Below are positions 1 to 44,698 of a stretch of 64,000 nt of DNA, piece by piece (position 1 is the first letter of the stretch; the number at the start of each line of letters is the position of its first letter). Source of the stretch: a virus (Duplodnaviria; Heunggongvirae; Uroviricota; Caudoviricetes). The notes under the pieces were generated by a model, which did not search any database, had not been told where the DNA came from, and saw only the letters and a list, made by a program, of their open reading frames with translations. A program made the translations under genes and the position numbers. The stretch spans positions 12,337 through 76,336 of IMG/VR virus record IMGVR_UViG_3300031760_000008. The stretch is one strand, 5' to 3'.

Positions 1-74
1 ACTACTACATACTTTCTTGAATCGTCATAATATCCATAGCTTAAAATGTCGTCTTTCTTAATCATATCACTCAT
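1..74 (-). CDS. hypothetical protein, 5' end only (continues beyond window start)
   Basis: Minus-strand ATG at 74 (MSDMIKKDDILSYGYYDDSRKYVV..) open to window edge; conserved promoter-like motif at 104-118 about 34 nt upstream. Confidence 0.35.
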   Translation of the reverse strand, partial: MSDMIKKDDILSYGYYDDSRKYVV

Positions 75-103
75 AATTTTCTACCTCCAACAAAAACTTA
101 TTT

Positions 104-118
104 CTAATAATATTTTAC
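104..118 (-). promoter_or_regulatory. conserved late-promoter-like motif copy (plus-strand ctaataatattttac)
   Basis: Member of 17+ copy family; 34 nt upstream of ATG at 74. Confidence 0.4.
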
Positions 119-177
119 TATAAAAAATAAAACTATATTTCACAATATAGTTTTATTTTCATATACATTTTTATAGA

Positions 178-855
178 TTACCATACTTGATTATGATATT
201 GATTATGGGTTCCTTTATTAATAGCTGTAATATGATTAATATTTTCAACTTCAGCAAATCCAACTTTATCTTTATTACTAACTTCGTATCTTGTACTATC
301 ATAAGGAAATTTAGTATGATATTCATATGAATGAACTTGAATTCCATCTATTGTTTGAATAATTTCAGCAGGCACAAGTTCAAGACCACATCCCGCAGGT
401 CTGACTACTTCTATAAGATCTCTAACTTTAGATAAATTAGCTGGGAAATAAATATATATTTTAACTTTATTTCCATCTCTTTGATATTCAATATTAAACA
501 TTGACAAAGCTTCAATTTTATCTATTTCACCTAAAGCATTAACAGATAAAGCTGTAGCAAGTCTCATACCTAGTTTAGATCCTCTATTCCTAATCATATC
601 AGGATAATGTTTAATTATAATTCTATTAGAATCATATGATTCTGAATAATCATATTTATATCCTACATATGAAGCAAGTAAAGGTAATAAATGATTTGGA
701 CAAGAATCAAAATCAATTAAACTTATCCAATAATCAGCATTTGTTTTAAAATGATTTATTAATAAATCAAATAATTTACAATATGCCTGTACATCTCTAC
801 TTTGTCTCATAATATAAGGTATAAATGTTTTACTTTCTAATACATTAGTTGACAT
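178..855 (-). CDS. hypothetical late protein (225 aa), follows C1 peptidase gene
   Basis: Long ORF, tightly packed with upstream gene (11 nt gap); no motif I can name. Confidence 0.45.
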   Translation of the reverse strand: MSTNVLESKTFIPYIMRQSRDVQAYCKLFDLLINHFKTNADYWISLIDFDSCPNHLLPLLASYVGYKYDYSESYDSNRIIIKHYPDMIRNRGSKLGMRLATALSVNALGEIDKIEALSMFNIEYQRDGNKVKIYIYFPANLSKVRDLIEVVRPAGCGLELVPAEIIQTIDGIQVHSYEYHTKFPYDSTRYEVSNKDKVGFAEVENINHITAINKGTHNQYHNQVW

Positions 856-866
856 TTATTTCTACC

Positions 867-1634
867 TCATTTCTTAAATCTACGTAATAACATATTTATA
901 AATCTTAATATTTTTTGCCATATAGTTTGATAAGTATCTATTGTATTTTCTTTTGTTGAAATAGCCCAAGCTGAATCAATAGGATAATCATAAGGAAGTA
1001 TAGCTTGACCTTTATCTCCCCAATATTTACCCCAGCTATTTTGAATTATGTAACCATAGGGATTATAACCACAAATTATAATCATATGATATCCTTTTAA
1101 TTCACCTTCAGGTTCTTTAATAATATAATTTAAATCATAATCTAAATCATTATAAACTGGAATTGAAATAGGTACTGGAGTATTTTGAAGAAGACACTTT
1201 TTTATTTCTTCTTCAGTATAAATTCTAGCATATGATTCTATTTTATATTTTTCAGCAATTGGTTTTAATTTATCTATATTCTCATCAACAATGTCTTTAA
1301 TTTCTTTCATTTCTTTATTGTGATCAAAATTATCTCTAGGAACATCTCCTATCTTTTGTAAAGTTTTTAATGCTTCTCTAGGATACATTCCTTGTTCTTG
1401 ATTATATGTTATAGGTCTATATCCATATATAAATCCTGTAGACATTTTTTCATTATTAAATTTTTCTAAAAATGTAGCTAAAGAGTGAGCTACACAAGAA
1501 TTAACAATACCTTGATCTTTAACATCAGATATTGCTAATTCATATTTCTCAGGAAATTTTGGAGCAGAAACTATTTTTGATTTAAACTTATAATCCCTTT
1601 TATCTGGTATCTCTTTCTTACTTCCGTAATACAT
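867..1634 (-). CDS. papain-like (C1A) cysteine peptidase, candidate lytic peptidase
   Basis: Catalytic signatures with papain spacing: 'QGIVNSCVAHS' (Gln19/Cys25 box), 'GYHMIIICGY' (His159 box), 'NSWGKYWGDKG' (Asn175-Ser-Trp box). Confidence 0.75.
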   Translation of the reverse strand: MYYGSKKEIPDKRDYKFKSKIVSAPKFPEKYELAISDVKDQGIVNSCVAHSLATFLEKFNNEKMSTGFIYGYRPITYNQEQGMYPREALKTLQKIGDVPRDNFDHNKEMKEIKDIVDENIDKLKPIAEKYKIESYARIYTEEEIKKCLLQNTPVPISIPVYNDLDYDLNYIIKEPEGELKGYHMIIICGYNPYGYIIQNSWGKYWGDKGQAILPYDYPIDSAWAISTKENTIDTYQTIWQKILRFINMLLRRFKK

Positions 1635-1657
1635 AAGACCACCTCCTTATATAAGCT

Positions 1658-2446
1658 TTAACTTATTGTTAGAATAGTTTCTATCTTAATTTTTTTATCA
1701 TGTAAACAATGCTCTACTTGTTCCATATTAACTAAGTTTTTATCTACAAATTCTATAACAATAAAGCCTACAATAGATCCTTCATTATTTTCTATAGCAA
1801 TTCCATATACAGCTTGAATATTTCTACTTAAAAAATATTCATACATTGTAGTATCTTTATCTTTTAATTCATTTATATCATCAATATAACATTTACCATC
1901 TTTTATTAAACTTTCACACCAGTATGATAAAAATGATCTAAATAAATTTTGAAAATCTGGCATTATACCAGCAAATCCAGGACCAGGACATTCATTAGTC
2001 ATAGACATTTTTAAAAAAGACAAGCCATTCATATCTCTTCCACCATTATGAAATCTAACTAATGCTACTCTAGCAGAATTAGTTTTTTGTTGAGTTCTTT
2101 TTAAACAAGCATTAATTTGAGCTTCTTTTTCTGATAACGTATTATTATCTTCTGCAGAAAGTGTATGACTTGTAACTCCATTTATAATATGTTTTGTTAA
2201 TTCTTGAAGTTGTTGTTGTAATAATTTTTGATTTTCTTGATTCTGTTCTATAACAGTTTTAAACATTTCATCACAACGTGCATCAGATTTATTACTATGT
2301 TTATTTGTAGTATCTATTAATTCTTTTTCTCTTTCAATAAATCTTCTTAAAGCTAAAATAGCAAATAGGACTAAAAATATCGCAGCTAATCCTAATACAC
2401 CAACTTCTAAATATGGTTTTATAAGGTCTAAAAATCCTACTTCCAC
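1658..2446 (-). CDS. membrane-anchored protein with coiled coil and C-terminal globular domain
   Basis: N-terminal hydrophobic helix (VGVLGLAAIFLVLFAILAL), QQQLQEL coiled segment, start overlaps stop of upstream gene. Confidence 0.5.
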   Translation of the reverse strand: MEVGFLDLIKPYLEVGVLGLAAIFLVLFAILALRRFIEREKELIDTTNKHSNKSDARCDEMFKTVIEQNQENQKLLQQQLQELTKHIINGVTSHTLSAEDNNTLSEKEAQINACLKRTQQKTNSARVALVRFHNGGRDMNGLSFLKMSMTNECPGPGFAGIMPDFQNLFRSFLSYWCESLIKDGKCYIDDINELKDKDTTMYEYFLSRNIQAVYGIAIENNEGSIVGFIVIEFVDKNLVNMEQVEHCLHDKKIKIETILTIS

Positions 2447-2685
2447 TACTCCACCTCCTGTTGTTCTTTTAATTCATTTAATTCAAGTTCTATATTTAAT
2501 AATCTTCCTTCAATTTTTTCAATTCTTTCTACATCTCTTTGAACAACCATATTCTGTTTCAATAATGTATATGAGCTGAATAATAGGTTAGATAACAGTA
2601 ATAAACCAGCAATAGTTCCTACTAAAAATATAAAACCATCAGATTGAATAAATTTTCTTAATCTTTCTTTTACCATACTAACCAC
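2446..2685 (-). CDS. small membrane protein, holin-like candidate
   Basis: 79 aa, one TM helix (FIFLVGTIAGLLLLSNLLF) followed by charged coiled-coil tail; promoter-like motif 2701-2711 just upstream. Confidence 0.45.
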   Translation of the reverse strand: MVSMVKERLRKFIQSDGFIFLVGTIAGLLLLSNLLFSSYTLLKQNMVVQRDVERIEKIEGRLLNIELELNELKEQQEVE

Positions 2686-2700
2686 CTCTTAGTCTTTCAA

Positions 2701-2711
2701 TAATATTTTAC
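2701..2711 (-). promoter_or_regulatory. conserved promoter-like motif copy
   Basis: taatattttac; 16 nt upstream of ATG 2685. Confidence 0.35.
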
Positions 2712-2770
2712 ATAGAAAAAGAGATAGAAATTTTCTATACGCTCTTTCTACCTCTTTTAATTTAATCTTA

Positions 2771-3055
2771 TTATACATTTTCACCATTTATATTTTGTAT
2801 TTGACTAGCAACTCCAGCCAATTCAGCTTCAATATTTGTAACTCTATTTGTTAAATTACTAATATTAGTATTGCTTGCATTTATAGAATTATTAATATTA
2901 CTAATATTTTGAGTATGGGTATTAACTGTATTCATTGTATTAACTAAATTAGAGACTGGAATATTAGTTGCTTCTAAAACATGACTATTATTTAAAGTCA
3001 TAATATTTCCAATATTTTGATTTTGTAATTGGATATCTTTATAAAAAGTTGCCAT
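2771..3055 (-). CDS. Asn-rich coiled-coil small protein
   Basis: 94 aa ORF, low-complexity N/T/S-rich heptad-like sequence, RBS aggaggtaa upstream. Confidence 0.4.
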   Translation of the reverse strand: MATFYKDIQLQNQNIGNIMTLNNSHVLEATNIPVSNLVNTMNTVNTHTQNISNINNSINASNTNISNLTNRVTNIEAELAGVASQIQNINGENV

Positions 3056-3068
3056 TTTAAATTACCTC

Positions 3069-5255
3069 CTATATCATATCTTCCATATAATCTTTTTCAA
3101 GTGATGAGCTATCATAATAAAAGTATTGTGTATTTAAATTTCTATATACTGCTATTGAAGTTTCATTATGTGTATAAGAAACTACAATATCACTAGTTAA
3201 TGGTGCTGTAAATTCCATTTCAACTAAACCTGTGATATAATCTATATGTCCTTTTCTAACTAAAACGTTATCACTATTATAAATATCACCGTTATTATTA
3301 TCTCTTAAAGTAGTTTGTCCATTGTTAATTCTTATTATAGCAGATCCTGGTAATATTGATGGATGTTCTAAATAAAAACTATATTTTAAATTAAGACTAG
3401 GATCAGGATCATCTAACATAGGAACTATTTGCTCATATAAACCTGTTAGTTGTTCTTTAGTAATTTCTTCTCCTTCATAATTTACATATTCAATAGGTTC
3501 TAGATCTACCATTAATATTCTACTATCTACATCAAGAATTGTTTCAATAACTTCTTTATAATTTATTAATGTATTGAAATTAACTTTCTCTAAAGAATAT
3601 TTATATCTCAAATTATTATTTATAGTTACTATTATATTTTGTAGTTCATCTCTTGATAAAGGAACTTTTGTAAAGAATGTTCCTCTTACTGTCCAAAAAT
3701 ATTTTTTAATTGATTCAAGATCCACAATAATTGATAAAGGTAATATTTTATAGTCATCTAAAGCTGTTATAATAGCATTAGAAAATGTTTCTATATCTTC
3801 ATCTTGTGCTACTTCAGATCTTAATATATATAATTTAACTACGAAACTATCCAAAGTTTCTATTTGACTTACTTTTTGCACACCAATGAATCCTGAGTGC
3901 TCATAATCACCATTGAAATATGCAGTGAAACAATCTAAATCATCTTCATCAACTCTACCATCTTGATTTGCATCTGCAAGTTGTTGTTGATATTCTGTTA
4001 AAGGATGAGCTTTTCTATCTTGAATAAATAATGCTACTGCATTCATATCATTTTCATCTATTATTTCACTATATACTACTTGACCATCAACTGGTTTAGA
4101 TGTTCTATCCATATTAACATTACCAATTGTCCAAGATACTTCCATACCAGGATCATTTGTTAAGTCTGTTGCTCTAACATTTGCTACTCCCCATTCTCTT
4201 AATGTAGCTCTTTCAAAATCAGCAAGTGTGATAAGAGTATCCATTGTATTTAAAAACTTAACTGAATTTTTTCTAGCTTCATCAGGAGTTTCTGGATCAT
4301 ATCCTTCTGAACTATCATAATTAGTAAAATGAATAAATCCACTAACATTATATACTGTATTTATATTAGATCCATCTCTGGCCCATATATTTCCAGTAAC
4401 TTTCTTTATAGTATTTTCATATATTTGGCCACTTTGACCTTTAGATAATAAATAAAATAATTTAAATCTATTTACATTAAAATTATTCCAATAATCTACT
4501 AATTCAATATAAGGTCTATCATTAACATCTACACCGAATTCAAATAATCTACCTACATTAGATGTTAAATAAATATTATCTCTTAATTCCCATACTTCAT
4601 TTTGATCGTCAATAAGAATAATATGATCTTGATCTACATTATCATCAGGTAAATAAATCCTATTATTTATTACATCATCAGCTGTATAATTGTATCCGTA
4701 AATTGAATGCCAAGGTCTTCCAGCTTCTGGATATGGATTAGCTGAAGTTCTAACAGGTGTTACAGGAATACCTTGAGTTAGAGTAACAACTGTTTCTAAT
4801 CCGTTATTATACATATTAGAGGGTAATTCATATGCTTTAGTTATATTACAATAAACGGTTTCATTATCCTCAGTTGCAAAAGTACAAAACATTGGTAATG
4901 TAGCAGCTTGAGTATAAGTATTAATAACATTAACTTGTACTTCAGCTGATTTGTACCATCTCATTTTATATCCAATTAATCTATAAATAGCTGCTGCATT
5001 TTTTCTTTGAGTAACAGAATCAGGATATACTTCTAAAGACTGCATATCTTGAGTATAAAATAACATATCACCTACAATAGCCATCAATTTAACTAATATC
5101 ATACCAGGATCATTTGTATCAGTACTTACCCATTTTTGAGTTATACCAGGTATAGAATTTATTAAATCGTCTAAAATATTGACATAATCTTTATCTGTAT
5201 AATCAATTCTTACAGCACTATAATCTTTCTTTTGAACTTGATTTATACTTGCCAT
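3069..5255 (-). CDS. baseplate J-like (gp6/gpJ family) protein with an internal dockerin-like Ca-binding repeat
   Basis: N-terminal 'DPGMILVKLMAIVGDMLFY..SVTQRKNAAAIYRLIGY' resembles baseplate J family; 'ADANQDGRVDEDDLDCFTAYFNG' matches the dockerin/EF-hand consensus; position after gp25-like gene. Confidence 0.65.
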   Translation of the reverse strand: MASINQVQKKDYSAVRIDYTDKDYVNILDDLINSIPGITQKWVSTDTNDPGMILVKLMAIVGDMLFYTQDMQSLEVYPDSVTQRKNAAAIYRLIGYKMRWYKSAEVQVNVINTYTQAATLPMFCTFATEDNETVYCNITKAYELPSNMYNNGLETVVTLTQGIPVTPVRTSANPYPEAGRPWHSIYGYNYTADDVINNRIYLPDDNVDQDHIILIDDQNEVWELRDNIYLTSNVGRLFEFGVDVNDRPYIELVDYWNNFNVNRFKLFYLLSKGQSGQIYENTIKKVTGNIWARDGSNINTVYNVSGFIHFTNYDSSEGYDPETPDEARKNSVKFLNTMDTLITLADFERATLREWGVANVRATDLTNDPGMEVSWTIGNVNMDRTSKPVDGQVVYSEIIDENDMNAVALFIQDRKAHPLTEYQQQLADANQDGRVDEDDLDCFTAYFNGDYEHSGFIGVQKVSQIETLDSFVVKLYILRSEVAQDEDIETFSNAIITALDDYKILPLSIIVDLESIKKYFWTVRGTFFTKVPLSRDELQNIIVTINNNLRYKYSLEKVNFNTLINYKEVIETILDVDSRILMVDLEPIEYVNYEGEEITKEQLTGLYEQIVPMLDDPDPSLNLKYSFYLEHPSILPGSAIIRINNGQTTLRDNNNGDIYNSDNVLVRKGHIDYITGLVEMEFTAPLTSDIVVSYTHNETSIAVYRNLNTQYFYYDSSSLEKDYMEDMI

Positions 5256-5282
5256 AAAACTCTACCTTTCTTTAATATCTAT

Positions 5283-5293
5283 TAATATTTTAC
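5283..5293 (-). promoter_or_regulatory. conserved promoter-like motif copy
   Basis: 28 nt upstream of ATG 5255 (baseplate J-like gene). Confidence 0.4.
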
Positions 5294-5295
5294 AT

Positions 5296-5697
5296 CTATT
5301 CAGAATATGGTTTATCTGGATTATCTTCAGAAGTTATTTCTAAATTATATTGATTTATTTGACCAGTTTCTTTAATTTCATACATTATATAAATATTAAC
5401 AATTTGATCTTCGAATTTAATTATAATGTCATCTCCTCTAACTATTATTCTAGGTTCATATTTATCAATAGCTTGCATTATATCTTCTTTTAACAAAGGT
5501 TCAATTATTACTCCATTATATCTAAATATTCTATCTAAAAGGAAACAACCATATTCAGGATCTCCTAATAATTCTCCTGGTCGAGTTCTTAATAATAACC
5601 CTAAACATTCATTTATAGATTTTGTATTTTGAGAAAATTTTACATCTCTAGATGTTCTATCTACTATTTGTGGAAATGAAAAAGTGGATTGTCTCAT
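5296..5697 (-). CDS. baseplate wedge protein, gp25/GPW family
   Basis: 133 aa; 'LLLRTRPGELLGDPEYGCFLLDRIF' matches gp25/W signature; adjacent to baseplate J-like gene. Confidence 0.75.
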   Translation of the reverse strand: MRQSTFSFPQIVDRTSRDVKFSQNTKSINECLGLLLRTRPGELLGDPEYGCFLLDRIFRYNGVIIEPLLKEDIMQAIDKYEPRIIVRGDDIIIKFEDQIVNIYIMYEIKETGQINQYNLEITSEDNPDKPYSE

Positions 5698-5711
5698 ATT
5701 TTTCCTCCTTA

Positions 5712-7709
5712 TTATAATATTCTTCTAGCTCCCCAATATTTTTTAACATAATAATCTTCAGATAATGAAGAAATTTTAACAACATCCCCTGTACGAGGTG
5801 CATGTATAAAATTACCATCACCTACATAGATACCAACGTGTCCAGTAAAGTGAACCAAATCACCTTTCTGTAAATGATTTTTATCAACACCTGTACCATC
5901 AGTTCTTTGACCATCTGATACTCTATGAAGTTTATATCCAAAATGCTTATAAACATAATAGGTTAATCCAGAGCAATCAAAAGTGTTAGGACCTGTAGCA
6001 CCCCAAACATATTTACAGCCTAAAAATGTTTTAGCATAGTTTACAATATCATCACCTGTAGTCTGTCCAGATGTTTTTCTAACAGTATTAGTAACTATTC
6101 CTTGTACCTTCTTACCAAAATATGGTAAAGGATCTATTCTTGTAGATAAACTTGAAGGACTAGGCCATACAGCCCCTAAATGTAATCCTATATGTAAGTG
6201 AGTTCCTGTAGAATTACCAGTTGATCCCATATATCCTAAAGTATCTCCGGCCTTTACTTTATCTCCAACTTTATATGTAGGTTCCTTACATAAATGCATA
6301 TAAACAAAATAATGATTAGGATTTTTATCCATTTTTATCGCAATACAATTTCCTTGACCAGGACCAGCACCTGTTAGTCCTCTTACAACTCCTCCACCGT
6401 TGACATGAGCTACAGTACCATTACCTACAGCAATGACTGCACATCCTTCTTTACCAGAAATATCTAATCCTTTATGAGCTCCACCACCTGAATATCCTTG
6501 ATAATTATTAGGACTGTTATATTTAAAAGAATAAGGTAAAGCCTTTCTATTTTCTCCCCAGAAACAGCTAATATAATCTGTTGAAGGAACAGGCCAGAAA
6601 TATTCACCATATTCTGGAATATGTTTTAAACCTTCTAATATAGTTAAATCTATAAAGGTTAAAGCACTTAATTTACCTTGTTTTTCTATTTCAACTAAAT
6701 AATCATATGTAGTTTTTCTTCTTGAACTATATGCGGAAGTTCTACGTTTCCAATAATCATAATATTCTTTCAGTTGAGTCATAATATCTTTTCCGTTTTT
6801 ACTAATCTTAGCTGCTTCTGTTAAACATCCTGTTATAACTCCATTAACTCCATTACCATATTGATTCATAATATCCATACAGAATATTAAAATACCTGGA
6901 TTAGTAATACCATATGGCTCATCCATTAATTGATCTAAAGACACTTTAGTTTCTTGTTTTGCAAAAGATATTTGAGTTTCTTTTCCTTTTGCAGATACTA
7001 GCATTTTATGAGCTCCTGAAGTTATAGCTTGATTATAAACAGTTATATCCCAATTATTTCTTTTTGGAGAAGAACTTCCATTTTTTAAAGATGCTTGTAA
7101 ATCAGAAACAATGTTCAAAGATTGATCAGTCCAATTAGATAACCAATTAGAGTCAGCTGCTGCAATTTGATATAAAACATCAAAAGCTCTACAACCATGC
7201 CATTGTATTATTCCAATAGACCAAGCTCCTTTATCATTTGAAGTAACATTTCCAAATTGACCTTCAGTAATACCATTAGGCCAATTATTTCTATTAAGAC
7301 CTACCTCGTTTTCTACTATAATAGGCATTGCTAAATCTAATATAGCATCAGTACTTATTCCATACTCTCCATCAAAGCCTCCTATTCCAGCTGCTTCTGC
7401 ATTTTTTCCTAAAATTATAAAAGAATTATTAGAATTCTCAATGTAACTACCATATATAGGATCTCCTACTACTAAACCAGATACAAGAGATACAGCCCAT
7501 GGTAAAGAATAAAAAAGAGGACTTGATTTTTTAGACGAAGAATCTAATTTTCTATACTCTTCTACATTTGATTCAATTAAACCATAATGTACTTCAGGAA
7601 TATATATTTGATATCTATTTAATCCTTCTGGATCATCTGTAAGGCTATCATTAACTACATAACCTTTATATATACTATTATAATAACTATCTCTATTAAT
7701 TATATCCAT
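5712..7709 (-). CDS. tail-associated peptidoglycan hydrolase with M23 peptidase and NlpC/P60 domains
   Basis: 'HKGLDISGKEG..GSTGNSTGTHLHIGLH' = M23/LytM motifs; C-terminal 'FDCSGLTYYVY...GDLVHFTGHVGIYVG..FIHAP' = NlpC/P60 Cys-His-His; N-terminal 'IIQWHGCRAFD' possible glycosidase-like domain. Confidence 0.8.
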   Translation of the reverse strand: MDIINRDSYYNSIYKGYVVNDSLTDDPEGLNRYQIYIPEVHYGLIESNVEEYRKLDSSSKKSSPLFYSLPWAVSLVSGLVVGDPIYGSYIENSNNSFIILGKNAEAAGIGGFDGEYGISTDAILDLAMPIIVENEVGLNRNNWPNGITEGQFGNVTSNDKGAWSIGIIQWHGCRAFDVLYQIAAADSNWLSNWTDQSLNIVSDLQASLKNGSSSPKRNNWDITVYNQAITSGAHKMLVSAKGKETQISFAKQETKVSLDQLMDEPYGITNPGILIFCMDIMNQYGNGVNGVITGCLTEAAKISKNGKDIMTQLKEYYDYWKRRTSAYSSRRKTTYDYLVEIEKQGKLSALTFIDLTILEGLKHIPEYGEYFWPVPSTDYISCFWGENRKALPYSFKYNSPNNYQGYSGGGAHKGLDISGKEGCAVIAVGNGTVAHVNGGGVVRGLTGAGPGQGNCIAIKMDKNPNHYFVYMHLCKEPTYKVGDKVKAGDTLGYMGSTGNSTGTHLHIGLHLGAVWPSPSSLSTRIDPLPYFGKKVQGIVTNTVRKTSGQTTGDDIVNYAKTFLGCKYVWGATGPNTFDCSGLTYYVYKHFGYKLHRVSDGQRTDGTGVDKNHLQKGDLVHFTGHVGIYVGDGNFIHAPRTGDVVKISSLSEDYYVKKYWGARRIL

Positions 7710-7728
7710 ATATTATTTCCCTTCTTTA

Positions 7729-9306
7729 TTATCCTAATGACATTCCTGGTATATAAGATGATGGTCTAGAACTAGCAGGTTCTTTATCCCATTCAACTTT
7801 AGATATAGATATAGATGATTGACTAATTACATTACTTTCATTAGTATCATTAGTTTTATTTGTTTCAGTTGTTAAATCAATAGTATCTTTTCCTGTTGAT
7901 TTTTCTTGAGCTTTAGCATTTGATACAGGAGCTGCTCCTATATCTCTTATACGTAATAACTTTATCTCTGAAACAAATGTACCATTAGATGCAATTCTAT
8001 CTGTACATCCTTGTAACATATAAATTCCTGCGGTTCTACTATCTGACTCTAAAATTCTAGGTTTAATTGTAAATTCTGCACATAATGGTACATCAGCTGG
8101 AATACCTATAGTTGTTAACACTGCATCATACATTTCATATACATCAGCATTTCTAAGATAGTTATTTTTAACAGCATTTAAAAATTCCTCAGAAGCATTA
8201 TCTCCAGCTGCTTTTTTAATTTCAGAAGCTCTCTTATTAGCAGCTTTTTGTATTAAATATAATCTTAAATCTACTTGAGGATTCCACTTAACAACAATAT
8301 CAGGTATACCTTCTTTACCCCATTCAAAAACATGATTTATTTTAACATTATTAGCACTTGAATCAGCTGGACAAATATATGTTATATGTATTGTTTTATT
8401 ATCAGCCTCATCAGTAACATACATTAAATAATGAGGAACTTCTCTATAAGGCATATCTTCTTTATATTTTTGTTTATCCTCATCACTCTTAGACATATGA
8501 GACTCTAATAAATCTCTACAGTATATCCAAGGAGATTGACTAGATACTGCAGATGTAGTAATCTCAGGAGCATCTTTTCTTATATCATCATCAACTTCAA
8601 TTTTATAATTATAATCATTTGCATGATGAGTTAAATTACCCACTAGATGACTAGGTTGATTAGAACTAATGCCATAATAACTCCATAAAACAGATTCTAC
8701 TATATCAATTAAATTAATACCTTTTTCCTCACCTTCTCCTTTGAATTCAGGAATAGATGTTGAAAAGTCAGCATCGATAGCTAACATTGTAGTTCCTTCA
8801 AATGTATATTCAGAAATACCAGTAGACCAATCTATTTCAGATTCTGCATTGGTTAAGAAAAATTCATATTTTGGAGAAACTAATGTAGTATCATCTGGTA
8901 CATTATATCCATATTGAATAAATCCTCTTAGTCTTTTATTGGAATCATTCATGTCAACTCTCATTGCATGTGCTATTAATTCATCTAATAGTTCAACTTT
9001 ATCCTGAGTATTCTGACCATAATCAAAAGGATCATATTTTATTACTAGTTCAAAATCATTAACAGTTCCAGCTCCTTTTTTATTAAAAGTAAGTCCTGCT
9101 ATCATATTTTCCTTTTTATTATCAGAAGTAGAATCAAATGTAATAGGCTCAGTTTCACCTATTTGGAATCTAATCCATGTAGAATAAATAGGACCTTGCT
9201 TATTTAACATATTAATTATAGCTGTAATCATATTATCATATTTAGCAGCCATCTTTTTAGGAGTCGTGGTAGCTGATATATTTTTAAAATTTCTACTAGT
9301 TGCCAC
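7729..9306 (-). CDS. baseplate/tail structural protein (525 aa)
   Basis: Long ORF in baseplate module between LysM protein and tail lysin; overlaps upstream gene by 11 nt. Confidence 0.45.
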   Translation of the reverse strand: MATSRNFKNISATTTPKKMAAKYDNMITAIINMLNKQGPIYSTWIRFQIGETEPITFDSTSDNKKENMIAGLTFNKKGAGTVNDFELVIKYDPFDYGQNTQDKVELLDELIAHAMRVDMNDSNKRLRGFIQYGYNVPDDTTLVSPKYEFFLTNAESEIDWSTGISEYTFEGTTMLAIDADFSTSIPEFKGEGEEKGINLIDIVESVLWSYYGISSNQPSHLVGNLTHHANDYNYKIEVDDDIRKDAPEITTSAVSSQSPWIYCRDLLESHMSKSDEDKQKYKEDMPYREVPHYLMYVTDEADNKTIHITYICPADSSANNVKINHVFEWGKEGIPDIVVKWNPQVDLRLYLIQKAANKRASEIKKAAGDNASEEFLNAVKNNYLRNADVYEMYDAVLTTIGIPADVPLCAEFTIKPRILESDSRTAGIYMLQGCTDRIASNGTFVSEIKLLRIRDIGAAPVSNAKAQEKSTGKDTIDLTTETNKTNDTNESNVISQSSISISKVEWDKEPASSRPSSYIPGMSLG

Positions 9307-31255: not shown

Positions 31256-32743
31256 CTATAATTCTTTTGGTTTTGTTAAATCTTCTTTTTTATCTTCAAC
31301 AGGTTTTGCTCCTAGTTTACCTACAGCATATCCTGCTACTATTGATTTTAAATCTACTCCTAAACTATCTTGAGCTACTTTTAATATCTTATCTATTTTT
31401 TGAGTTCCACTTTCTATTAATTGAGTTGATTGATCTCCATACATTGTAATTGAATCTACATTTGATAATGGAGTAGATACTTCTTTAGCTATATCAGGAA
31501 GTTTATTTATAATCATTTCTACTACTGAAGCTTGTTGCATTTTAGCTTGTGCTTCTGCTTTCTTTTCGATACCTTTTGCTTCTGCAATACCTTTTGCTTC
31601 AATACCAGCTGCTTCAGCTTCTAATTTTGCTTTTATACCATCAGCCTCTGCTACTGCTTTAGCCCTTATAGCTTGAGCTTCTAATTCTGCTGCTTCTTTA
31701 TTAGCTTTTGCTATTTCTATTTTAGCTTGAGCTTCTTGTTTTGCTTTTTCTAGATCAGCTTGAGCATTTTGTATTGTAACTTGTTTTTGAGCTTCTGCAT
31801 TAATTTCTGCTTTATATTTATCTGCATCAGCTTGTTTTCTAACTTCTGCATCTAATTGTTTTTCTCTTAAAGCTACTTCTTTTTCTTTTAATTCTGTTTC
31901 TTTTTCTGTTTTAGCTATTTCAGCAAGAACTGTGTTTTCATTTATAAGCTTTTGTCTTTCAGCTTTTTGTATTTCATAAATAGTATCAGCTTCTGCTTTT
32001 TTCTTATCTTGTTCAATTTGATATTCATATTGTTTTAAAGCTAACTCTTTATTTTGTTTTGCTATTTCAGCTTCTGATGCTGCTTTAGCTTCATTACCTT
32101 CTCTAGCTGCAGCTGCTTGTGCTACTTGAACATCTCTTTCAGCTTGGGCTTTTGCTATTTTAGCATCTTTTTGAATCTTTGATAAATTATCAATACCTAA
32201 ATCATTAATAGCATTATTCTCATCTGTACAAGATTGTACATTTAAGTTTACTATTTCTAATCCTATTGCTTTAATATCGTCTTTAGCATTTTCTTGAATT
32301 TTAGTTGAAAATAATTGTTTGTTATTAACTAAATCTTTAAGATTCATTTGACCAATTATTTCTCTCATGTTACCTTCAAGAACTTGTTGAACATTTCTTG
32401 CAATATATTCAGGATTTTGATTTAGGAAATGTCTTGCAGCTACCTGTATTAATTCAGGATTGTTAGGTATTCTAACATTTGCTACAGCATCTACATCTAC
32501 ATTAATAAAATCAGATGTAGGAACTCTTGATGTCTTAACATCAATTTGAATTAACTCTAAAGTTAATTTATCCACTCTCTCAAAGAATGGGATTCTTAAT
32601 GTTGCTTTACCTATTATTACTCTAGGTTCTTTTTTAAGACCTGATATTAAATATACCATATCTGGTGGACATTTAACATAGCTCATGAAAATTAAACCTA
32701 TCAGCAATATTACAGCAACAGCGATAATGATTGCTAATACCAT
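31256..32743 (-). CDS. SPFH/band-7 flotillin-like membrane protein
   Basis: N-terminal TM (LAIIIAVAVILLIGLIFM), SPFH-like core (..GKATLRIPFFERVDKLTLE..IQID..), then ~250 aa Ala/Glu/Lys/Gln coiled coil (AKAQAERDVQVAQAAAAREGNEAKAA...) typical of flotillin. Confidence 0.75.
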   Translation of the reverse strand: MVLAIIIAVAVILLIGLIFMSYVKCPPDMVYLISGLKKEPRVIIGKATLRIPFFERVDKLTLELIQIDVKTSRVPTSDFINVDVDAVANVRIPNNPELIQVAARHFLNQNPEYIARNVQQVLEGNMREIIGQMNLKDLVNNKQLFSTKIQENAKDDIKAIGLEIVNLNVQSCTDENNAINDLGIDNLSKIQKDAKIAKAQAERDVQVAQAAAAREGNEAKAASEAEIAKQNKELALKQYEYQIEQDKKKAEADTIYEIQKAERQKLINENTVLAEIAKTEKETELKEKEVALREKQLDAEVRKQADADKYKAEINAEAQKQVTIQNAQADLEKAKQEAQAKIEIAKANKEAAELEAQAIRAKAVAEADGIKAKLEAEAAGIEAKGIAEAKGIEKKAEAQAKMQQASVVEMIINKLPDIAKEVSTPLSNVDSITMYGDQSTQLIESGTQKIDKILKVAQDSLGVDLKSIVAGYAVGKLGAKPVEDKKEDLTKPKEL

Positions 32744-41590: not shown

Positions 41591-42979
41591 TTAAACAGTA
41601 ACTCTTCCTCTGATATAAAGTTGAGGATTAACCATTTTCTTACCATAGATTGATACCCAACCTTGTTGTGTTGTGTAATCAGCAAGTGTAACTGGAGCTG
41701 TGTATGTAACTGGCATGTAATCACCAACTACATATCCTGCTTGCCAGAAGTCATTTCCGATTGCACCCATGAAGAAGTCATTAGCTCCTAATGCAGGTGT
41801 TTGATATACTTTAAGATCTCCTAAAGTACCAGCTAAGAAAGATCCACCATTCTTTGGTTGTTCATTTCCTTTGAAGTTTACACATTTTTGCATATAAGCT
41901 ACTACGTTAGCACCAGCTACAATGTAGTTAACATTTAGGTTTCCACCTGTTCTTGTATATACACTAGCTCTTGCTAAGTTGATAGCGATTTGTAATGATT
42001 CAGCATGTTCTGCATCTGATACACCTGGTCTTGGTGTTGCTGACCAAACAACTGCGTTTCCACCAGCTGCTCCAGCAAAGATATCAGCCATTACTATTCT
42101 TTCTTTCTCTTTGTTAATTTCATTAGCAACTTGTTTTTCGAATTCAAGTGGCATATTTACACCATATTCTTTATTGATTCTGTAAGCTGCTGTTAAAGCA
42201 TATACTGCTCTAATTTTGTGTTCTTCAGCTTCAATTAGAACTGGGTTAATACCAATTGTAACATCTCCAACTTGTTGTGTGTTATGTCCATCTAATTCTG
42301 GATATAGATAGTTAGGAACGATTGCATTGTTATATGTATAAGAAATTTTATCTCCATCAACAAATGCACTAGCAGGTACGATTTCACCTGTTTGATAGTT
42401 AATTGTACCACCATCTGATAAAGCTCCTGCTCCATCATCTGTAACAACTGTTCCATTAGCTAATACTATTTTAACTGTTCCAGCATCAATTGGTGTAAAT
42501 GGTGCTAGATAGTTAGCAGCAGCTGCTAAAGGTTGATTTGATACAACTTTGCTATCATATTCAGGATCTGTTTTACCCATTCCTGTTGCATCTAATGCAA
42601 GATCTCCAGCTTTTGTAGCTCCTTTATCTGTTCCATATCTGAATTCTAGAATTGGAAGTAATTGAGCTGCTGTTGACATAGGTTGTACTGATACTAATTC
42701 AGGTAATATTGTATTTTGGATTGCTAAACTAACAATGTTGAAAGCATCTCTTTTGAAGTTTCCAACGTTTGTTGTTTGTGTGTAAGCTTCATATAAGCTT
42801 CCTTTTTGAATATTTTCAAATAATTGTCCTGCATAATATTTTTCAAATGTGCTCATTGGTTTTGCACCAACAGCTTGTCTTGCAGATTCTAAAAGACCAA
42901 TTCTTTTAGCATATTTTGTAGCAACTGGGTTGCTAGCTATTTCTCTGTTTAAAGATTCTTTAGTCATAACTTTAGCCAT
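41591..42979 (-). CDS. major capsid protein (HK97-fold class)
   Basis: Start chosen at MAKVMTKESL with RBS aaaggagg 8 nt upstream (track ORF extends to 43069); GC-richer codon usage than surroundings; followed by two intrinsic terminators; position after protease/scaffold gene. Confidence 0.7.
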   Translation of the reverse strand: MAKVMTKESLNREIASNPVATKYAKRIGLLESARQAVGAKPMSTFEKYYAGQLFENIQKGSLYEAYTQTTNVGNFKRDAFNIVSLAIQNTILPELVSVQPMSTAAQLLPILEFRYGTDKGATKAGDLALDATGMGKTDPEYDSKVVSNQPLAAAANYLAPFTPIDAGTVKIVLANGTVVTDDGAGALSDGGTINYQTGEIVPASAFVDGDKISYTYNNAIVPNYLYPELDGHNTQQVGDVTIGINPVLIEAEEHKIRAVYALTAAYRINKEYGVNMPLEFEKQVANEINKEKERIVMADIFAGAAGGNAVVWSATPRPGVSDAEHAESLQIAINLARASVYTRTGGNLNVNYIVAGANVVAYMQKCVNFKGNEQPKNGGSFLAGTLGDLKVYQTPALGANDFFMGAIGNDFWQAGYVVGDYMPVTYTAPVTLADYTTQQGWVSIYGKKMVNPQLYIRGRVTV

Positions 42980-43151
42980 GATAATTTTCCTCCTTTTAAA
43001 TTTGTAATTTATATTTAAATTACAGCTAATATTCTTATTTAATAATTTTTTGGTTTTTATACTGACCACCAGTTGTTTCTAATATCTTTAAAAACTATAT
43101 ATTCATTAATCTCATTAAATATCTTTTAAATGATTTTAATTCCTAATCTAA

Positions 43152-43231: not shown

Positions 43232-44698
43232 TTATTTTCCTATTAAAGCATTATATAGATTTCTTTCATCTTCAGATAATTCCTCTCTATTACCGAAATT
43301 CTCTGTCAATGCTTTAACTGTTCCTATAGGATTAAATGCAAGTTTAGAAAATCTATCCTCTGCTTCTTCATATTTAGCATTATTTTCTTTTAAAGCTTTT
43401 ATTTCAGCTTCTAATTCTTTTATTTTATTTGATTCTATTAATTTACTTTCAGTTAATTTTTTAGCTGATGCAGCTTTATCAGCTTCTAATGATTCTACTT
43501 TCTTTTTAAGTGTTTCATTTTCAGCAAGTATCTTACTTGAGTTTTCTATATTTTTAGATAATACTTTATTTGCTTCTAATAATCTTGTAAATTTTAATTC
43601 AGCTGCTTTAACTGATTCTTTTAATTGAGCTATTTCTTCATCATGTTCTTTTTGAAGTCTTTCTATTTTCTTCTCATTAACTTCTTTTAATTTATTTATA
43701 GTTTCTTCATGAGCCTCTACATCTACTGCATTAGCTTCATTTAATTGTTTAGCTTCTTCTAATTCTTTCTTCAAAGATTCTACTTCTTTAGTTTCAGTAC
43801 ATTTAGCTTCTTTTAATTTTGATTTTAACATTTCTTTTGAATCTTTATAGTAAGTATTTTCTTCAACAAGTTTAGAATTTTCTTCAGCTAATTTAGAATT
43901 AGCCTCCAATGATTCATCAAGTTGAGCTTTTGCTTCTTCATATTTTTCTGTTATTAATTTTAAAGCAATAGCTTTATTTGATTCTAATAATTTATTCTCT
44001 GTCTTAGAAGCATCTAGTTGAGCTAATTTATTTTCAACTTCTTTAACTAAATTTTCTTTATCAGAAACTGCAACACTTTCTAAAACTGTTTTAGCTTGTT
44101 GTAATTGATTTTCTGTTTCACATTCATTAATTTCTTTCTTTAATGATTCAGTTAAAGTATTAAGCTGTTTACTTTCAGCAAGAGCAACTCTAGCTTTAGT
44201 ATTTGCAGGAGTAACTACAACATCAAATGTAATGAAATCATATGTATTTGGATCTATTATATTTTGACCATTTTCATATATTTCTTCTCCCATACCACGA
44301 GAGCTTACTCCTAATTTTGCTCCTGAATCTGCTAATGCTTTTACTATTCTACCTGTTGGAGTATCTAATATTTCAGCTTCTCCATATATTACTCCTTCTT
44401 CAGGTCTTTTCTCTAGTTTAACAATTGATATAGCTGCATTCTTAGCAAGTGTTTCACATCTATCACCTTCAGGGTGATCTAATTCACCAAATAATGTTTT
44501 TGTTTCCAAAGCTTCCATTACATCTTCAGATCCAAAAACTCTATTATCCCATAACTCCTCAGTATATAATCTATCAGCATTTCTAGTACCATGCTTATAA
44601 TCTGCAAATATTCCTTTTAATTTTCCTAATATTCCTTTTGAACCTTGTTCATATACTGTATTAGAGTTTTGAGCTTCTATAATAGTAGCTTTTCCCAT
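43232..44698 (-). CDS. prohead protease / scaffold fusion protein
   Basis: ~180 aa globular N-terminal domain then ~300 aa Lys/Glu coiled coil (scaffold-like); immediately upstream of major capsid gene. Confidence 0.55.
   Translation of the reverse strand: MGKATIIEAQNSNTVYEQGSKGILGKLKGIFADYKHGTRNADRLYTEELWDNRVFGSEDVMEALETKTLFGELDHPEGDRCETLAKNAAISIVKLEKRPEEGVIYGEAEILDTPTGRIVKALADSGAKLGVSSRGMGEEIYENGQNIIDPNTYDFITFDVVVTPANTKARVALAESKQLNTLTESLKKEINECETENQLQQAKTVLESVAVSDKENLVKEVENKLAQLDASKTENKLLESNKAIALKLITEKYEEAKAQLDESLEANSKLAEENSKLVEENTYYKDSKEMLKSKLKEAKCTETKEVESLKKELEEAKQLNEANAVDVEAHEETINKLKEVNEKKIERLQKEHDEEIAQLKESVKAAELKFTRLLEANKVLSKNIENSSKILAENETLKKKVESLEADKAASAKKLTESKLIESNKIKELEAEIKALKENNAKYEEAEDRFSKLAFNPIGTVKALTENFGNREELSEDERNLYNALIGK

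What the first reader, a model, noticed from the sequence alone, without database searches (positions are those of the whole stretch)
867..1634. Papain-like C1A cysteine peptidase in the terminal lysis-like cluster
The 255-aa product has all three papain catalytic boxes at papain-like spacing: QG..NSC.AHS, G.H..hhCGY and NSWG..WG. It sits at the distal end of the late operon next to small membrane proteins. No canonical endolysin (amidase, GH25 or similar) is visible in the window, and the only other lysin is virion-associated. C1A peptidases are unusual in phage lysis cassettes. It could be a peptide cross-bridge-cleaving endolysin, an S-layer-processing enzyme, or a virion protein maturation factor.
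Basis: partly seen in the sequence, partly recalled or inferred. Interest (0 to 1): 0.6.

Follow-up and report, generated by a model that had tools for sequence, protein, structure and literature searches.

The report
Phage papain-type peptidase, probable lysis enzyme
A large T4-like gut phage carries an intact papain-family cysteine protease beside two membrane-protein genes; comparison with hundreds of phage relatives suggests it attacks the host cell envelope at lysis, but no experiment has tested this role.

Summary
ORF 867..1634 (-) encodes a 255-aa papain-family (C1A) peptidase: Pfam PF00112 scores 43.9 bits, and Gln41/Cys47/His183/Asn199 sit at papain spacing and are invariant in 48 homologues. 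The AlphaFold model has pLDDT 94 and best matches xylellain (3OIS).

The "terminal" part is wrong. The gene lies among baseplate genes of a T4-like phage (relatives 180-210 kb), between a J-position protein and a P2-I-like protein. More structural genes, including the portal, follow it.

The lysis reading has circumstantial comparative support:
- The gene is packed with a 79-aa single-TM protein and a 262-aa TM+GAF-like protein.
- In other clades, homologues of the 262-aa protein sit directly upstream of a Pfam holin and a Peptidase_C39_2-SH3 endolysin.
- Phage relatives of the peptidase lack signal peptides. They end in wall-binding modules (PG_binding_1, SLH, Cu_amine_oxidN1, CWB2) or, like this one, a cationic amphipathic helix.
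- Several lie next to holins and Amidase_2/GH25 lysins.

Maturation protease is unlikely, because an S77 prohead protease is present. The substrate (peptidoglycan bridge or wall/S-layer protein) is unknown.

Xylellain-type C1A peptidases in tailed phages are already published, so this is a new member of a known kind. The possible lysin role is not in the two lysin domain surveys checked.

The parts
867..1634 (-). C1A (papain-family, xylellain-type) cysteine peptidase gene, 255 aa plus stop. It has no signal peptide and no I29 pro-domain.
   Evidence: ORF. PF00112 43.9 bits. PHROG 16701. AF2 pLDDT 94.3. Foldseek best hit 3OIS xylellain, E 8e-17, TM 0.75.
1494..1496 (-). Codon of the catalytic Cys47. 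Gln41 is at 1512..1514, His183 at 1086..1088 and Asn199 at 1038..1040.
   Evidence: These residues are invariant in 48 homologues of 43-85% identity. Their spacing matches papain.
870..923 (-). C-terminal cationic amphipathic helix, aa 238-255 (IWQKILRFINMLLRRFKK).
   Evidence: Helix 238-254 in the model. It has the highest hydrophobic moment in the protein (0.84), reached by 15 of 10000 shuffles, with net charge +6. A comparable tail occurs in 35 of 62 distinct viral relatives.
1639..1648 (-). Shine-Dalgarno sequence AAGGAGGTGG, ending 4 nt upstream of the peptidase ATG.
   Evidence: Read directly from the sequence.
1658..2446 (-). 262-aa membrane protein: N-terminal TM helix, long helices and a C-terminal GAF-like domain. 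Its build resembles T4 holin T, and its family is linked to lysis cassettes.
   Evidence: AF2 model, C-terminal domain pLDDT >90. Foldseek finds GAF domains, plus the T4 holin T periplasmic domain 6psk_T/6px4_B at E 5e-6 and TM 0.74-0.77. Annotated T-type/class III holins appear in BFVD. Homologues lie directly upstream of holin plus C39_2-SH3 lysin genes. The pairing with the C1 gene is conserved.
2446..2685 (-). 79-aa protein with one TM segment and a charged coiled-coil tail (76 aa if it starts at ATG 2676). It is a holin-like candidate. Its stop overlaps the start of the 262-aa gene (TAGTG).
   Evidence: There is a weak, sub-threshold match to the small membrane protein family TIGR04561.
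2771..3055 (-). 94-aa coiled-coil, fibre-like protein ending in ...NINGENV. It is the first gene of the block lying between the J-position and I-like genes.
   Evidence: The relative L003 has a 258-aa Phage_fiber_rpt protein at this position.
178..855 (-). P2 gpI-like tail/baseplate protein immediately downstream. It shows that the peptidase is not at the operon end.
   Evidence: Tail_P2_I 21.2 bits against a cut-off of 20.6. TIGR02242 E 2.4e-8, below its cut-off. 70% identical to the L003 gene that follows C1.
3069..7709 (-). Upstream baseplate context: a 728-aa J-position protein (3069..5255), a gp25-like wedge protein (5296..5697) and an M23+NlpC/P60 tail-associated lysin (5712..7709).
   Evidence: GPW_gp25 E 1.8e-11, NLPC_P60 E 2e-27, Peptidase_M23 E 8e-17. 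The PHROG tail-protein family phrog_400 matches at E 1.7e-37, second only to the unannotated phrog_12508 at 1.3e-37.

Best explanation
The gene encodes an active, pro-domain-less papain-family (C1A, xylellain-type) cysteine peptidase that most likely works as a holin-dependent lysis enzyme.

Proposed sequence of events:
1. The enzyme is made late in the cytoplasm. It is co-transcribed with baseplate genes, as the last gene of a tightly packed three-gene unit: 79-aa TM protein, then 262-aa TM+GAF-like protein, then peptidase.
2. It has no secretion signal, so it can reach the envelope only once the membrane is breached. The neighbouring membrane proteins presumably do this or time it.
3. Its C-terminal cationic amphipathic helix occupies the position where relatives carry wall-binding domains. 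The helix then directs the enzyme to the anionic membrane or wall.
4. The Cys47/His183/Asn199 triad cuts a peptide bond in the envelope. The target is either an L-amino-acid peptidoglycan cross-bridge or a wall-anchored (S-layer-type) protein.

Shown: the family, the predicted fold, the conserved catalytic residues, the gene arrangement and the architectures and contexts of relatives.
Inferred: late timing, the export route, the role of the helix and the substrate.
Open: whether it is the phage's only lysin or an accessory to one encoded outside the window.
For: (1) The enzyme looks intact.
- PF00112 scores above its cut-off.
- Q41, C47, H183 and N199-S-W are invariant in 48 homologues.
- The AF2 model has pLDDT 94.3 and a papain fold, with xylellain as best match.

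(2) There is no N-terminal hydrophobic segment. Only 2 of 62 distinct viral relatives have one.

(3) Relatives are built like endolysins.
- C1+PG_binding_1 occurs in L088 and L090.
- C1+SLH occurs in L054 and L059.
- C1+Cu_amine_oxidN1 occurs in L068, L074 and L078.
- phiCTP1 ORF27 carries CWB2 repeats (Pfam) behind an N-terminal region that matches the window peptidase by tblastn (25.5% identity, E 3e-6).
- 35 of 62 carry a cationic amphipathic tail like this one. Such tails are a described feature of single-domain lysins (PMC8223927).

(4) Some relatives sit in lysis cassettes.
- THSA-485A: the peptidase lies directly after the GH25 endolysin.
- L068: C1, then a TM protein, then Phage_holin_1 (E 6e-25).
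- L076: C1, then a TM protein, then Amidase_2, then a 2-TM protein.
- L059: C1, then a TM1 protein, then a TM2 protein, then a 133-aa ORF of unknown function, then Amidase_2.
- L006: the C1 start overlaps a 71-aa 2-TM ORF.
- Small TM proteins make up 12.6% of genes within two positions of C1, against 5.8% elsewhere in the same loci (Fisher p=0.0016; 20 of 52 loci).

(5) The 262-aa neighbour links the gene to lysis.
- Its homologues directly precede Phage_holin_6_1 plus C39_2-SH3 in L175.
- They precede a TM protein plus TM-C39_2-SH3 in L009 and L011.
- The C1 gene here occupies the slot just downstream of that family.
- Its fold and build resemble T4 holin T. T4's t gene likewise follows the tail-fibre genes.

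(6) The pair TM-GAF then C1 is kept in relatives down to 58% (C1) and 39% (TM-GAF) identity.

(7) Spacing is tight, with overlapping stop/start codons, and no terminator was found.
Against: - No experiment exists for any phage member of the family. The one distant relative tested, phiCTP1 ORF27, is recorded in GenBank as having no lytic activity on host cells.
- To my knowledge, C1A enzymes are not known to cleave peptidoglycan.
- Across IMG/VR the neighbourhood is heterogeneous. It includes NrdD, SHMT, dUTPase and RecJ, with only about five lysin or holin families among 147 neighbour clusters.
- In the 125-kb relatives a C39_2-SH3 lysin sits beside the TM-GAF gene, while the C1 gene lies about 17 kb away. 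There, C1 is at most an accessory.
- The 262-aa protein shows no sequence homology to T4 T (hhalign probability 0.8%). Generic GAF domains match it better.
- The charges flanking its TM helix (acidic N-terminus, RR after the helix) suggest the GAF domain may be cytoplasmic, unlike T4 T.
- Only 64 kb of a genome whose relatives are about 180-210 kb was seen.
Confidence: 0.5

Rival explanations
1. Intracellular host-takeover or counter-defence protease. The enzyme stays in the cytoplasm. Its C-terminal amphipathic helix would act as a membrane-targeting sequence of the MinD/FtsA type, tethering it to the inner face of the membrane. There it would cleave host membrane-associated or defence proteins.
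For: - It has no signal peptide and no pro-domain, so it should be active in the cytoplasm.
- In many large-phage relatives the gene sits among nucleotide-metabolism and replication genes, not lysis genes.
- In the 125-kb clade it is separate from the lysis cassette.
- The amphipathic tail resembles peripheral membrane anchors. That comparison rests on my own knowledge and was not tested.
Against: - Relatives with the same catalytic domain carry PG_binding_1, SLH, Cu_amine_oxidN1 or CWB2 modules. These only make sense outside the membrane.
- Several of those relatives lie in holin/amidase cassettes.
- Lysis genes of large phages are often scattered (T4 is an example), so a mixed context is weak evidence.
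Confidence: 0.2
2. Virion-associated or morphogenetic protease of the baseplate/tail-fibre module. It would either process a tail or fibre protein during assembly, or ride on the virion to cut surface proteins (S-layer, mucus) during adsorption.
For: - The gene lies between baseplate genes in the J and I positions.
- In L008 the upstream neighbours carry tail-type Pfam domains (GPW_gp25, BW3TFN). In L078 the upstream gene only resembles a fibre gene by eye and was not tested.
- In L176 the order C1 then I-like protein is kept.
Against: - It is flanked by membrane proteins, not structural ones.
- The position at the end of the tail-fibre genes is also the standard position of lysis cassettes. 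T4's t gene is one example.
- The context varies widely in other phages.
- The T4-type S77 prohead protease is present at 43232..44698.
- The phage already has a dedicated tail lysin, M23+NlpC/P60.
Confidence: 0.15
3. A hitch-hiking gene acquired from bacteria with no important role for the phage, or an inactive relic.
For: Horizontal acquisition of xylellain-type peptidases by tailed phages is documented (PMC10380794). Similar genes are widespread in bacteria, with at least 491 loci found.
Against: - All catalytic residues and 33 positions in total are invariant across 48 homologues down to 43% identity.
- Synteny with the TM-GAF gene is conserved.
- One relative carries an intein, which by my own knowledge is usually found in conserved, important genes.
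Confidence: 0.05

Closest known systems
Xylellain (Xylella fastidiosa cysteine protease, PDB 3OIS), the 'short bacterial' xylellain-type branch of MEROPS C1A
   Same: It is the best sequence-profile and fold match (E 3e-25; Foldseek E 8e-17, TM 0.75, 26% identity). Both share the DxRD(Y/F) N-terminal motif, the Gln/Cys/His/Asn residues and the absence of an I29 pro-domain.
   Different: The phage protein starts at about xylellain residue 31. It therefore lacks the N-terminal extension that the structure paper reports as covering the active site; that detail is from my own recollection of Leite et al. 2013, which I did not read here. The phage protein adds a C-terminal cationic amphipathic helix, and it is phage-encoded beside membrane proteins.
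Thermoanaerobacterium phage THSA-485A peptidase Tsac_2838 and PHROG 16701 'peptidase'
   Same: They belong to the same phage C1 family (36% identity over 89% of the query; PHROG E 2.6e-29). The THSA-485A gene lies immediately after the GH25 endolysin.
   Different: THSA-485A is a 42-kb temperate-type phage with a canonical endolysin next door. Here the gene is in a T4-like jumbo phage, next to a TM-GAF protein, and no canonical endolysin is in view. No member of the family has a tested function.
Cwp84 of Clostridioides difficile (C1A protease + CWB2 repeats that matures the S-layer precursor SlpA) and its phage look-alike phiCTP1 ORF27
   Same: All have a C1A catalytic domain and are aimed at the Gram-positive wall. 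ORF27 has an N-terminal C1-like region (tblastn 25.5% identity) followed by CWB2 repeats (E 1e-20). It lies just upstream of the holin and endolysin genes.
   Different: The window protein has no CWB2 repeats, no signal peptide, no pro-peptide and no lectin-like domain. Identity to ORF27 is only about 25%. ORF27 showed no lytic activity (GenBank note). Cwp84's role is from my own knowledge.
Single-domain endolysins with a C-terminal AMP-like amphipathic cationic helix
   Same: Both are one catalytic domain followed by a short, highly basic amphipathic helix, with no wall-binding domain. PMC8223927 describes this as a recurrent lysin feature.
   Different: Those lysins are muramidases or transglycosylases, mostly from phages of Gram-negative hosts. 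Here the catalytic domain is a C1A peptidase. Peptidase_C1 is not mentioned in the main text of either lysin survey that was word-searched.
T4 holin T (for the 262-aa neighbour, not the peptidase)
   Same: Both have a short N-terminus, one TM helix and a large globular alpha/beta domain. Fold matches to 6psk_T/6px4_B give E 5e-6 and TM 0.74-0.77. Annotated T/class III holins appear in BFVD. In both phages the gene follows the tail-fibre genes.
   Different: No sequence homology was detected. Generic GAF domains match better. An extra coiled coil is present. The predicted topology may be inverted. In two clades a separate Pfam or candidate holin follows it, so it may be a regulator rather than the holin.

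Membership tests
Papain family, MEROPS C1A / Pfam PF00112 | HMM match above the curated threshold | tested here: met
   43.9 bits against a cut-off of 20.7, covering aa 33-209.
Papain family, MEROPS C1A / Pfam PF00112 | Catalytic Cys at a helix N-terminus, His, Asn and the oxyanion-hole Gln, at papain-like spacing | tested here: met
   Q41, C47, H183 and N199. Spacings are 6/136/16, against papain's 6/134/16. The residues are invariant in 48 homologues.
Papain family, MEROPS C1A / Pfam PF00112 | Two-lobed papain fold | tested here: met
   AF2 pLDDT 94.3 and pTM 0.90. The top 50 PDB matches are all papain-family enzymes. Triad distances could not be measured because no model coordinates were available.
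Papain family, MEROPS C1A / Pfam PF00112 | Peptidase activity | not testable with these tools
   This needs an enzyme assay with an E-64 or C47A control.
Xylellain-type short bacterial C1A peptidases | No I29 pro-domain, about 250-290 aa, conserved DxRDY start, closest to xylellain | tested here: met
   Profile aligned to xylellain residues 32-275. No other Pfam domain was found. The acquisition of this type by Myoviridae and Siphoviridae is published (PMC10380794).
Phage endolysin (holin-dependent cell-wall hydrolase) | Degrades the host cell wall | not testable with these tools
   No assay was possible. The distant relative phiCTP1 ORF27 is reported as non-lytic.
Phage endolysin (holin-dependent cell-wall hydrolase) | Cytoplasmic synthesis without a secretion signal | tested here: met
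   The N-terminus is hydrophilic. Only 2 of 62 viral relatives have an N-terminal hydrophobic stretch.
Phage endolysin (holin-dependent cell-wall hydrolase) | Encoded next to a holin | tested here: inconclusive
   The two upstream genes encode TM proteins, but neither matches a holin HMM. The 262-aa family flanks true holins elsewhere. Some relatives of C1 lie next to Phage_holin_1.
Phage endolysin (holin-dependent cell-wall hydrolase) | Envelope-targeting module (wall-binding domain or AMP-like tail) | tested here: met
   An amphipathic cationic helix spans aa 238-255. Relatives carry PG_binding_1, SLH, Cu_amine_oxidN1 or CWB2 at the same end.
Cwp84-like S-layer-processing protease | C1A domain plus CWB2 repeats, a signal peptide and a pro-peptide | tested here: not met
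   The window protein has only the C1A domain. CWB2 repeats are present in phiCTP1 ORF27.
Prohead (capsid maturation) protease | Located beside the portal/scaffold/capsid genes, and the only protease of the head module | tested here: not met
   A T4-type Peptidase_S77 gene lies at 43232..44698, next to Gp23 at 41591..43069. The C1 gene is about 40 kb away, among baseplate genes.

The most novel reading that the evidence does not exclude
Xylellain-type C1A peptidases are an unrecognised class of phage lysis enzyme. The domain was not mentioned in the two lysin domain surveys checked. On this reading they are released through holin lesions and cut envelope protein or an L-amino-acid cross-bridge. 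They would either be the sole lysin of this T4-like jumbo phage clade, or a third lysis function that strips S-layer or wall-anchored proteins, playing the part that spanins or LysB play for other envelope layers.
Probability: 0.3. Interest if true: 0.7.

Novelty: new member of a known kind. Interest (0 to 1): 0.45.

Why it matters
If the lysis role is real, the papain family joins the repertoire of phage lytic domains. It would open hundreds of ready-made variants, with PG-binding, SLH, CWB2 or AMP-like targeting modules, for enzybiotic design against Firmicutes. It could also answer how phages of S-layered or protein-coated Gram-positive hosts clear the non-peptidoglycan layer at lysis. If the role is not real, the gene is an ordinary acquired bacterial protease whose presence in tailed phages is already documented.

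Tried and rejected
- **Sigma-70 promoter and terminator scan of 1..6000.** It found 42 promoter-like sites against 49 expected, and no terminators. There is no internal signal, which is consistent with read-through from the baseplate genes.
- **T4 late-promoter motif TATAAATA.** There are 49 matches against 38 expected, and none in the gaps before the three genes, so it is uninformative.
- **hhalign of the 262-aa family against T4 holin T.** No sequence homology was found (probability 0.8%). The T-like idea rests on fold and architecture only.
- **Profile of the 262-aa family against PDB sequences.** Only coiled-coil noise came back.
- **Search for a canonical endolysin in the phage clade.** The IMG/VR scan with the C39_2-SH3 lysin of the 125-kb clade found only one contig, of that same clade, because the derived patterns were poor. 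In the protein search, none of the best 120 of 2323 hits lies on a 205-212-kb contig. Both results are inconclusive.
- **Look-up of the window's 903-aa edge protein, to walk beyond the window.** The protein is not on record.
- **DNA-level search of window 1..8000 in the phage collection.** It returned only short NlpC/P60 matches to C. difficile phages, so no close cultured relative exists in that collection.
- **Head-maturation protease.** Rejected because an S77 protease is present.
- **NCBIfam.** No model matches the peptidase or the 262-aa protein.
- **Literature searches for a tested phage C1 peptidase or a C1 lysin.** None was found.
- **First structure job for the 262-aa protein.** It was rerun without that row.
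Full report
**1. The observation**

The ORF at 867..1634 on the minus strand is real. It has an ATG start, encodes 255 aa, and has a Shine-Dalgarno AAGGAGGTGG ending 4 nt upstream.

- It matches Pfam Peptidase_C1 (PF00112) at 43.9 bits against a curated cut-off of 20.7.
- It matches PHROG 16701, annotated only as 'peptidase', at E 2.6e-29.
- This gives Gln41, Cys47, His183 and Asn199, with spacings 6/136/16. Papain has 6/134/16.
- In an alignment of 48 metagenomic homologues (43-85% identity) these residues are invariant, along with 29 other positions.
- An AlphaFold2 model built on that alignment is confident (mean pLDDT 94.3, pTM 0.90).
- All of its top PDB matches are papain-family enzymes. 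The best is xylellain from Xylella fastidiosa (3OIS; E 8e-17, TM 0.75, 26% identity). Xylellain is also the best hit by sequence profile (E 3e-25).
- The profile aligns from xylellain residue 32, so the phage protein has no pro-domain and no long N-terminal extension.
- The N-terminus is hydrophilic, so there is no signal peptide.

I could not measure triad distances because model coordinates are not exposed.

**2. Where the gene sits**

The window is one long minus-strand block: 80 of 83 non-overlapping ORFs are on that strand. G+C is 23-34% in 2-kb windows. It carries T4-type structural genes:

| Gene | Coordinates |
|---|---|
| Gp23 capsid protein | 41591..43069 |
| Peptidase_S77 prohead protease | 43232..44698 |
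| T4_baseplate protein | 16844..17650 |
| gp25-like wedge protein | 5296..5697 |
| M23+NlpC/P60 tail-type lysin | 5712..7709 |

Homologues of the peptidase lie on metagenomic contigs of 205-212 kb. The order there is M23 protein, gp25, large J-position protein, fibre-repeat protein, a small protein, a 274-aa TM protein, C1 peptidase, I-like protein, five further ORFs without Pfam hits, then a T4-type portal. A 99% identical copy is on IMG/VR contig 3300032030_000012, which is 178.8 kb.

So the gene is not at the end of the late operon. It lies between the J-position protein (3069..5255) and a P2-I-like protein (178..855). The latter is supported by Tail_P2_I just above its cut-off and by TIGR02242 at E 2.4e-8.

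In a related 125-kb clade the J-position and I-like genes are adjacent. The segment of 94-aa fibre-like protein, 79-aa TM protein, 262-aa TM protein and C1 therefore behaves as a block lying between them.

The three genes are tightly coupled:
- The stop of the 79-aa gene overlaps the GTG start of the 262-aa gene.
- The peptidase starts 23 nt after the 262-aa stop.
- No terminator-like or above-chance promoter-like signal lies in 1..6000.

Late co-expression with the baseplate genes is an inference from this layout.

**3. The 262-aa neighbour**

It has no Pfam or NCBIfam match.

The AF2 model gives an N-terminal TM helix, long helices and a C-terminal alpha/beta domain with pLDDT above 90. Foldseek matches that domain as follows:
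- GAF domains score best (TM up to 0.81).
- Among solved structures it also matches the periplasmic domain of T4 holin T (6psk_T and 6px4_B; E about 5e-6, TM 0.74-0.77).
- Among predicted viral structures it matches many 190-260-aa 'GAF domain-containing' phage proteins.
- It also matches proteins annotated as holin, T holin lysis mediator or class III holin.

The build is that of T4 T: a short N-terminus, one TM segment and a large globular domain. T4's t gene also follows the tail-fibre genes. However, there is no detectable sequence homology (hhalign probability 0.8%). The charge distribution around the TM helix (acidic N-terminus, RR after the helix) would favour the opposite topology. I therefore call it 'T-holin-like in architecture' and not a member of that family.

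The genomic evidence is stronger:
- In the 125-kb clade its homologue (53-57% identity) is followed by a 115-118-aa N-terminal-TM protein. A 451-464-aa protein follows, with an N-terminal TM segment, Peptidase_C39_2 and SH3_3.
- In a third clade (45% identity) it is followed by a Pfam Phage_holin_6_1 gene. A C39_2-SH3 protein comes next, and a glucosaminidase lies three ORFs further on.
- Peptidase_C39_2 is a recognised lysin catalytic domain of Gram-positive phages (PMC8223927).

The family thus marks the start of lysis cassettes. In the window's clade the gene directly after it is the C1 peptidase. That pairing holds in relatives down to 58% (C1) and 39% (TM-GAF) identity.

**4. What the wider family says**

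A pattern scan of IMG/VR found at least 454 viral stretches encoding relatives. A scan of GTDB genomes found at least 491. The closest genome bins are uncultured rumen Erysipelotrichaceae, rabbit-gut Bacilli and Acutalibacteraceae. That suggests a low-GC gut Firmicute as host.

The C-termini of 62 distinct viral proteins fall into classes:
- 35 end in a roughly 20-aa cationic amphipathic helix like the window protein. Here that is IWQKILRFINMLLRRFKK, with hydrophobic moment 0.84 (reached by 15 of 10000 shuffles) and net charge +6.
- Others end in PG_binding_1 (L088, L090).
- Others end in an SLH domain (L054, L059).
- Others end in Cu_amine_oxidN1 (L068, L074, L078).
- Clostridium phage phiCTP1 ORF27 combines a C1-like N-terminus (tblastn) with CWB2 repeats, the build of C. 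difficile Cwp84.
- Only 2 of the 62 have an N-terminal hydrophobic stretch.

A catalytic domain followed by a wall-binding module, with no secretion signal, is the classic plan of holin-dependent Gram-positive endolysins. A short AMP-like C-terminal helix is the described alternative for single-domain lysins (PMC8223927).

Several relatives that carry wall-binding modules sit in recognisable cassettes:

| Locus | Gene order |
|---|---|
| L068 | C1-CuAO, TM protein, Phage_holin_1 (E 6e-25) |
| L076 | C1-CuAO, TM protein, Amidase_2, 2-TM protein |
| L059 | C1-SLH, TM1 protein, TM2 protein, 133-aa ORF, Amidase_2 |
| L088 | C1-PG_binding_1, then a protein with two PG_binding_1 repeats |

In addition:
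- In phage THSA-485A the peptidase directly follows the GH25 endolysin.
- In L006 its start overlaps a 71-aa two-TM ORF.
- Over 52 non-redundant loci, small TM proteins make up 12.6% of the genes within two positions of C1. Elsewhere in the same loci they make up 5.8% (Fisher p=0.0016).

**5. Counter-evidence**

- The neighbourhood is far from uniform. Among 147 neighbour clusters only about five are lysin or holin families. Many are nucleotide-metabolism or replication genes.
- In the 125-kb clade the C1 gene lies about 17 kb from the holin/C39_2 cassette.
- Wherever a canonical lysin is adjacent (GH25, Amidase_2), C1 is a second enzyme. This points to an accessory role with a different bond specificity rather than a stand-alone endolysin.
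- The only experimental datum is a GenBank note that His-tagged phiCTP1 ORF27 has no lytic activity on C. tyrobutyricum. That fits a protein substrate but concerns a relative of only 25% identity.
- Whether the window's phage has another endolysin could not be settled. No lysin domain other than the M23+NlpC/P60 protein was found in the eight ORFs at 178..7709 or the 55 further ORFs of at least 90 aa.
- About two thirds of the genome is outside the window, and attempts to reach it failed.

**6. Mechanism proposed**

1. The enzyme is synthesised late as an already mature enzyme, confined to the cytoplasm.
2. The membrane is breached or the breach is timed by the 79-aa protein, the 262-aa protein, or both.
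3. The enzyme is released to the envelope.
4. The cationic amphipathic helix binds anionic membrane or wall polymers.
5. Cys47/His183/Asn199 hydrolyse a peptide bond in the envelope.

Steps 1-4 are inferred from architecture and comparative context. Only the enzyme family, the fold and the arrangements are shown. I put this at about 0.5.

The rivals are:
- a cytoplasmic, membrane-tethered host-directed protease (0.2);
- a virion or morphogenetic protease (0.15);
- a dispensable acquired gene (0.05).

**7. Comparison and novelty**

The protein is a member of the papain family, in its xylellain-type bacterial branch. All testable defining features are met.

- It is not a Cwp84-type protein, because it has no CWB2 repeats, signal peptide or pro-peptide.
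- It is not the head protease, because an S77 protease is present.
- Membership of 'endolysins' cannot be claimed without an activity test.

The presence of xylellain-type C1A peptidases in Myoviridae and Siphoviridae has been published (PMC10380794). A PHROG and GenBank annotations also exist. The gene is therefore a new member of a known kind.

The functional picture assembled here does appear to be new. Peptidase_C1 is not mentioned in the main text of either lysin survey that was word-searched, and no paper linking a C1 peptidase to a holin was found.

Interest is moderate. It is a testable lead rather than a surprise on its own.

Noticed in passing
window 10587..12503 (-); also 3069..5255 (-): A 638-aa protein in the baseplate region carries three type I dockerin repeats (E 8e-26) and an EF-hand pair. 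The J-position protein has a weak dockerin match, as do its relatives. A dockerin on a phage baseplate suggests adsorption to cohesin-bearing (cellulosome-type) host surface proteins.
   Followed up: no
window 1658..2446 (-); L009 8001-8780, L011 8001-8780, L175 6001-6783, L176 5210-5977: This is a family of roughly 240-275-aa phage proteins with an N-terminal TM helix, a coiled coil and a GAF-like domain (invariant motif RFHNGG...SFLKMSMTNE...FRS). It has no Pfam or NCBIfam model. It sits at the junction between tail-fibre genes and lysis cassettes, and structurally resembles T4 holin T.
   Followed up: partly
L048 8708-10633 (IMGVR_UViG_3300025858_000009, 304 kb): In this relative the C1 peptidase gene encodes a 642-aa product that matches LAGLIDADG_3 (E 5.6e-6, above cut-off) and, weakly and below cut-off, the intein splicing domain. 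This suggests the gene is interrupted by an intein.
   Followed up: no
window 2771..3055 (-); L009 7669-7878; L011 7408-7840; L003 8820-9026: The small fibre-like proteins just upstream of the TM-GAF gene end in a shared C-terminal motif, ...N(I/V)NGE(N/E)(A/V/L). The L003 protein ends in the shorter ...VKNING. Its meaning is unknown.
   Followed up: no
window 53645..63434 (-): This is an array of large paralogous proteins that share N-terminal segments. At least one window ORF matches DUF285. Two of the array's ORFs match the repeat region of an annotated DUF285 protein in L011 by BLASTP. They may be variable receptor-binding proteins.
   Followed up: no
window 31256..32743 (-) and unlocated ORFs of at least 90 aa: The window encodes an SPFH/Band 7-flotillin-like protein (495 aa, 31256..32743) and an NTP_transf_2 protein at 48422..49195. 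It also has cREC_REC and HAD_SAK_2 domain ORFs whose positions were not determined. This is unusual cargo inside a structural gene block.
   Followed up: no
window 43232..44698 (-): The T4-type S77 prohead protease domain occupies only the N-terminal 170 or so residues of a 488-aa protein. The long C-terminal part has no domain match.
   Followed up: no
L009 9135-10529; L011 9126-10481; L175 7187-8752: Related phages encode large lysin candidates with Peptidase_C39_2 and SH3_3 domains. The L009 and L011 proteins have an N-terminal hydrophobic segment seen by eye. The family has more than 2300 members in the protein collection.
   Followed up: partly
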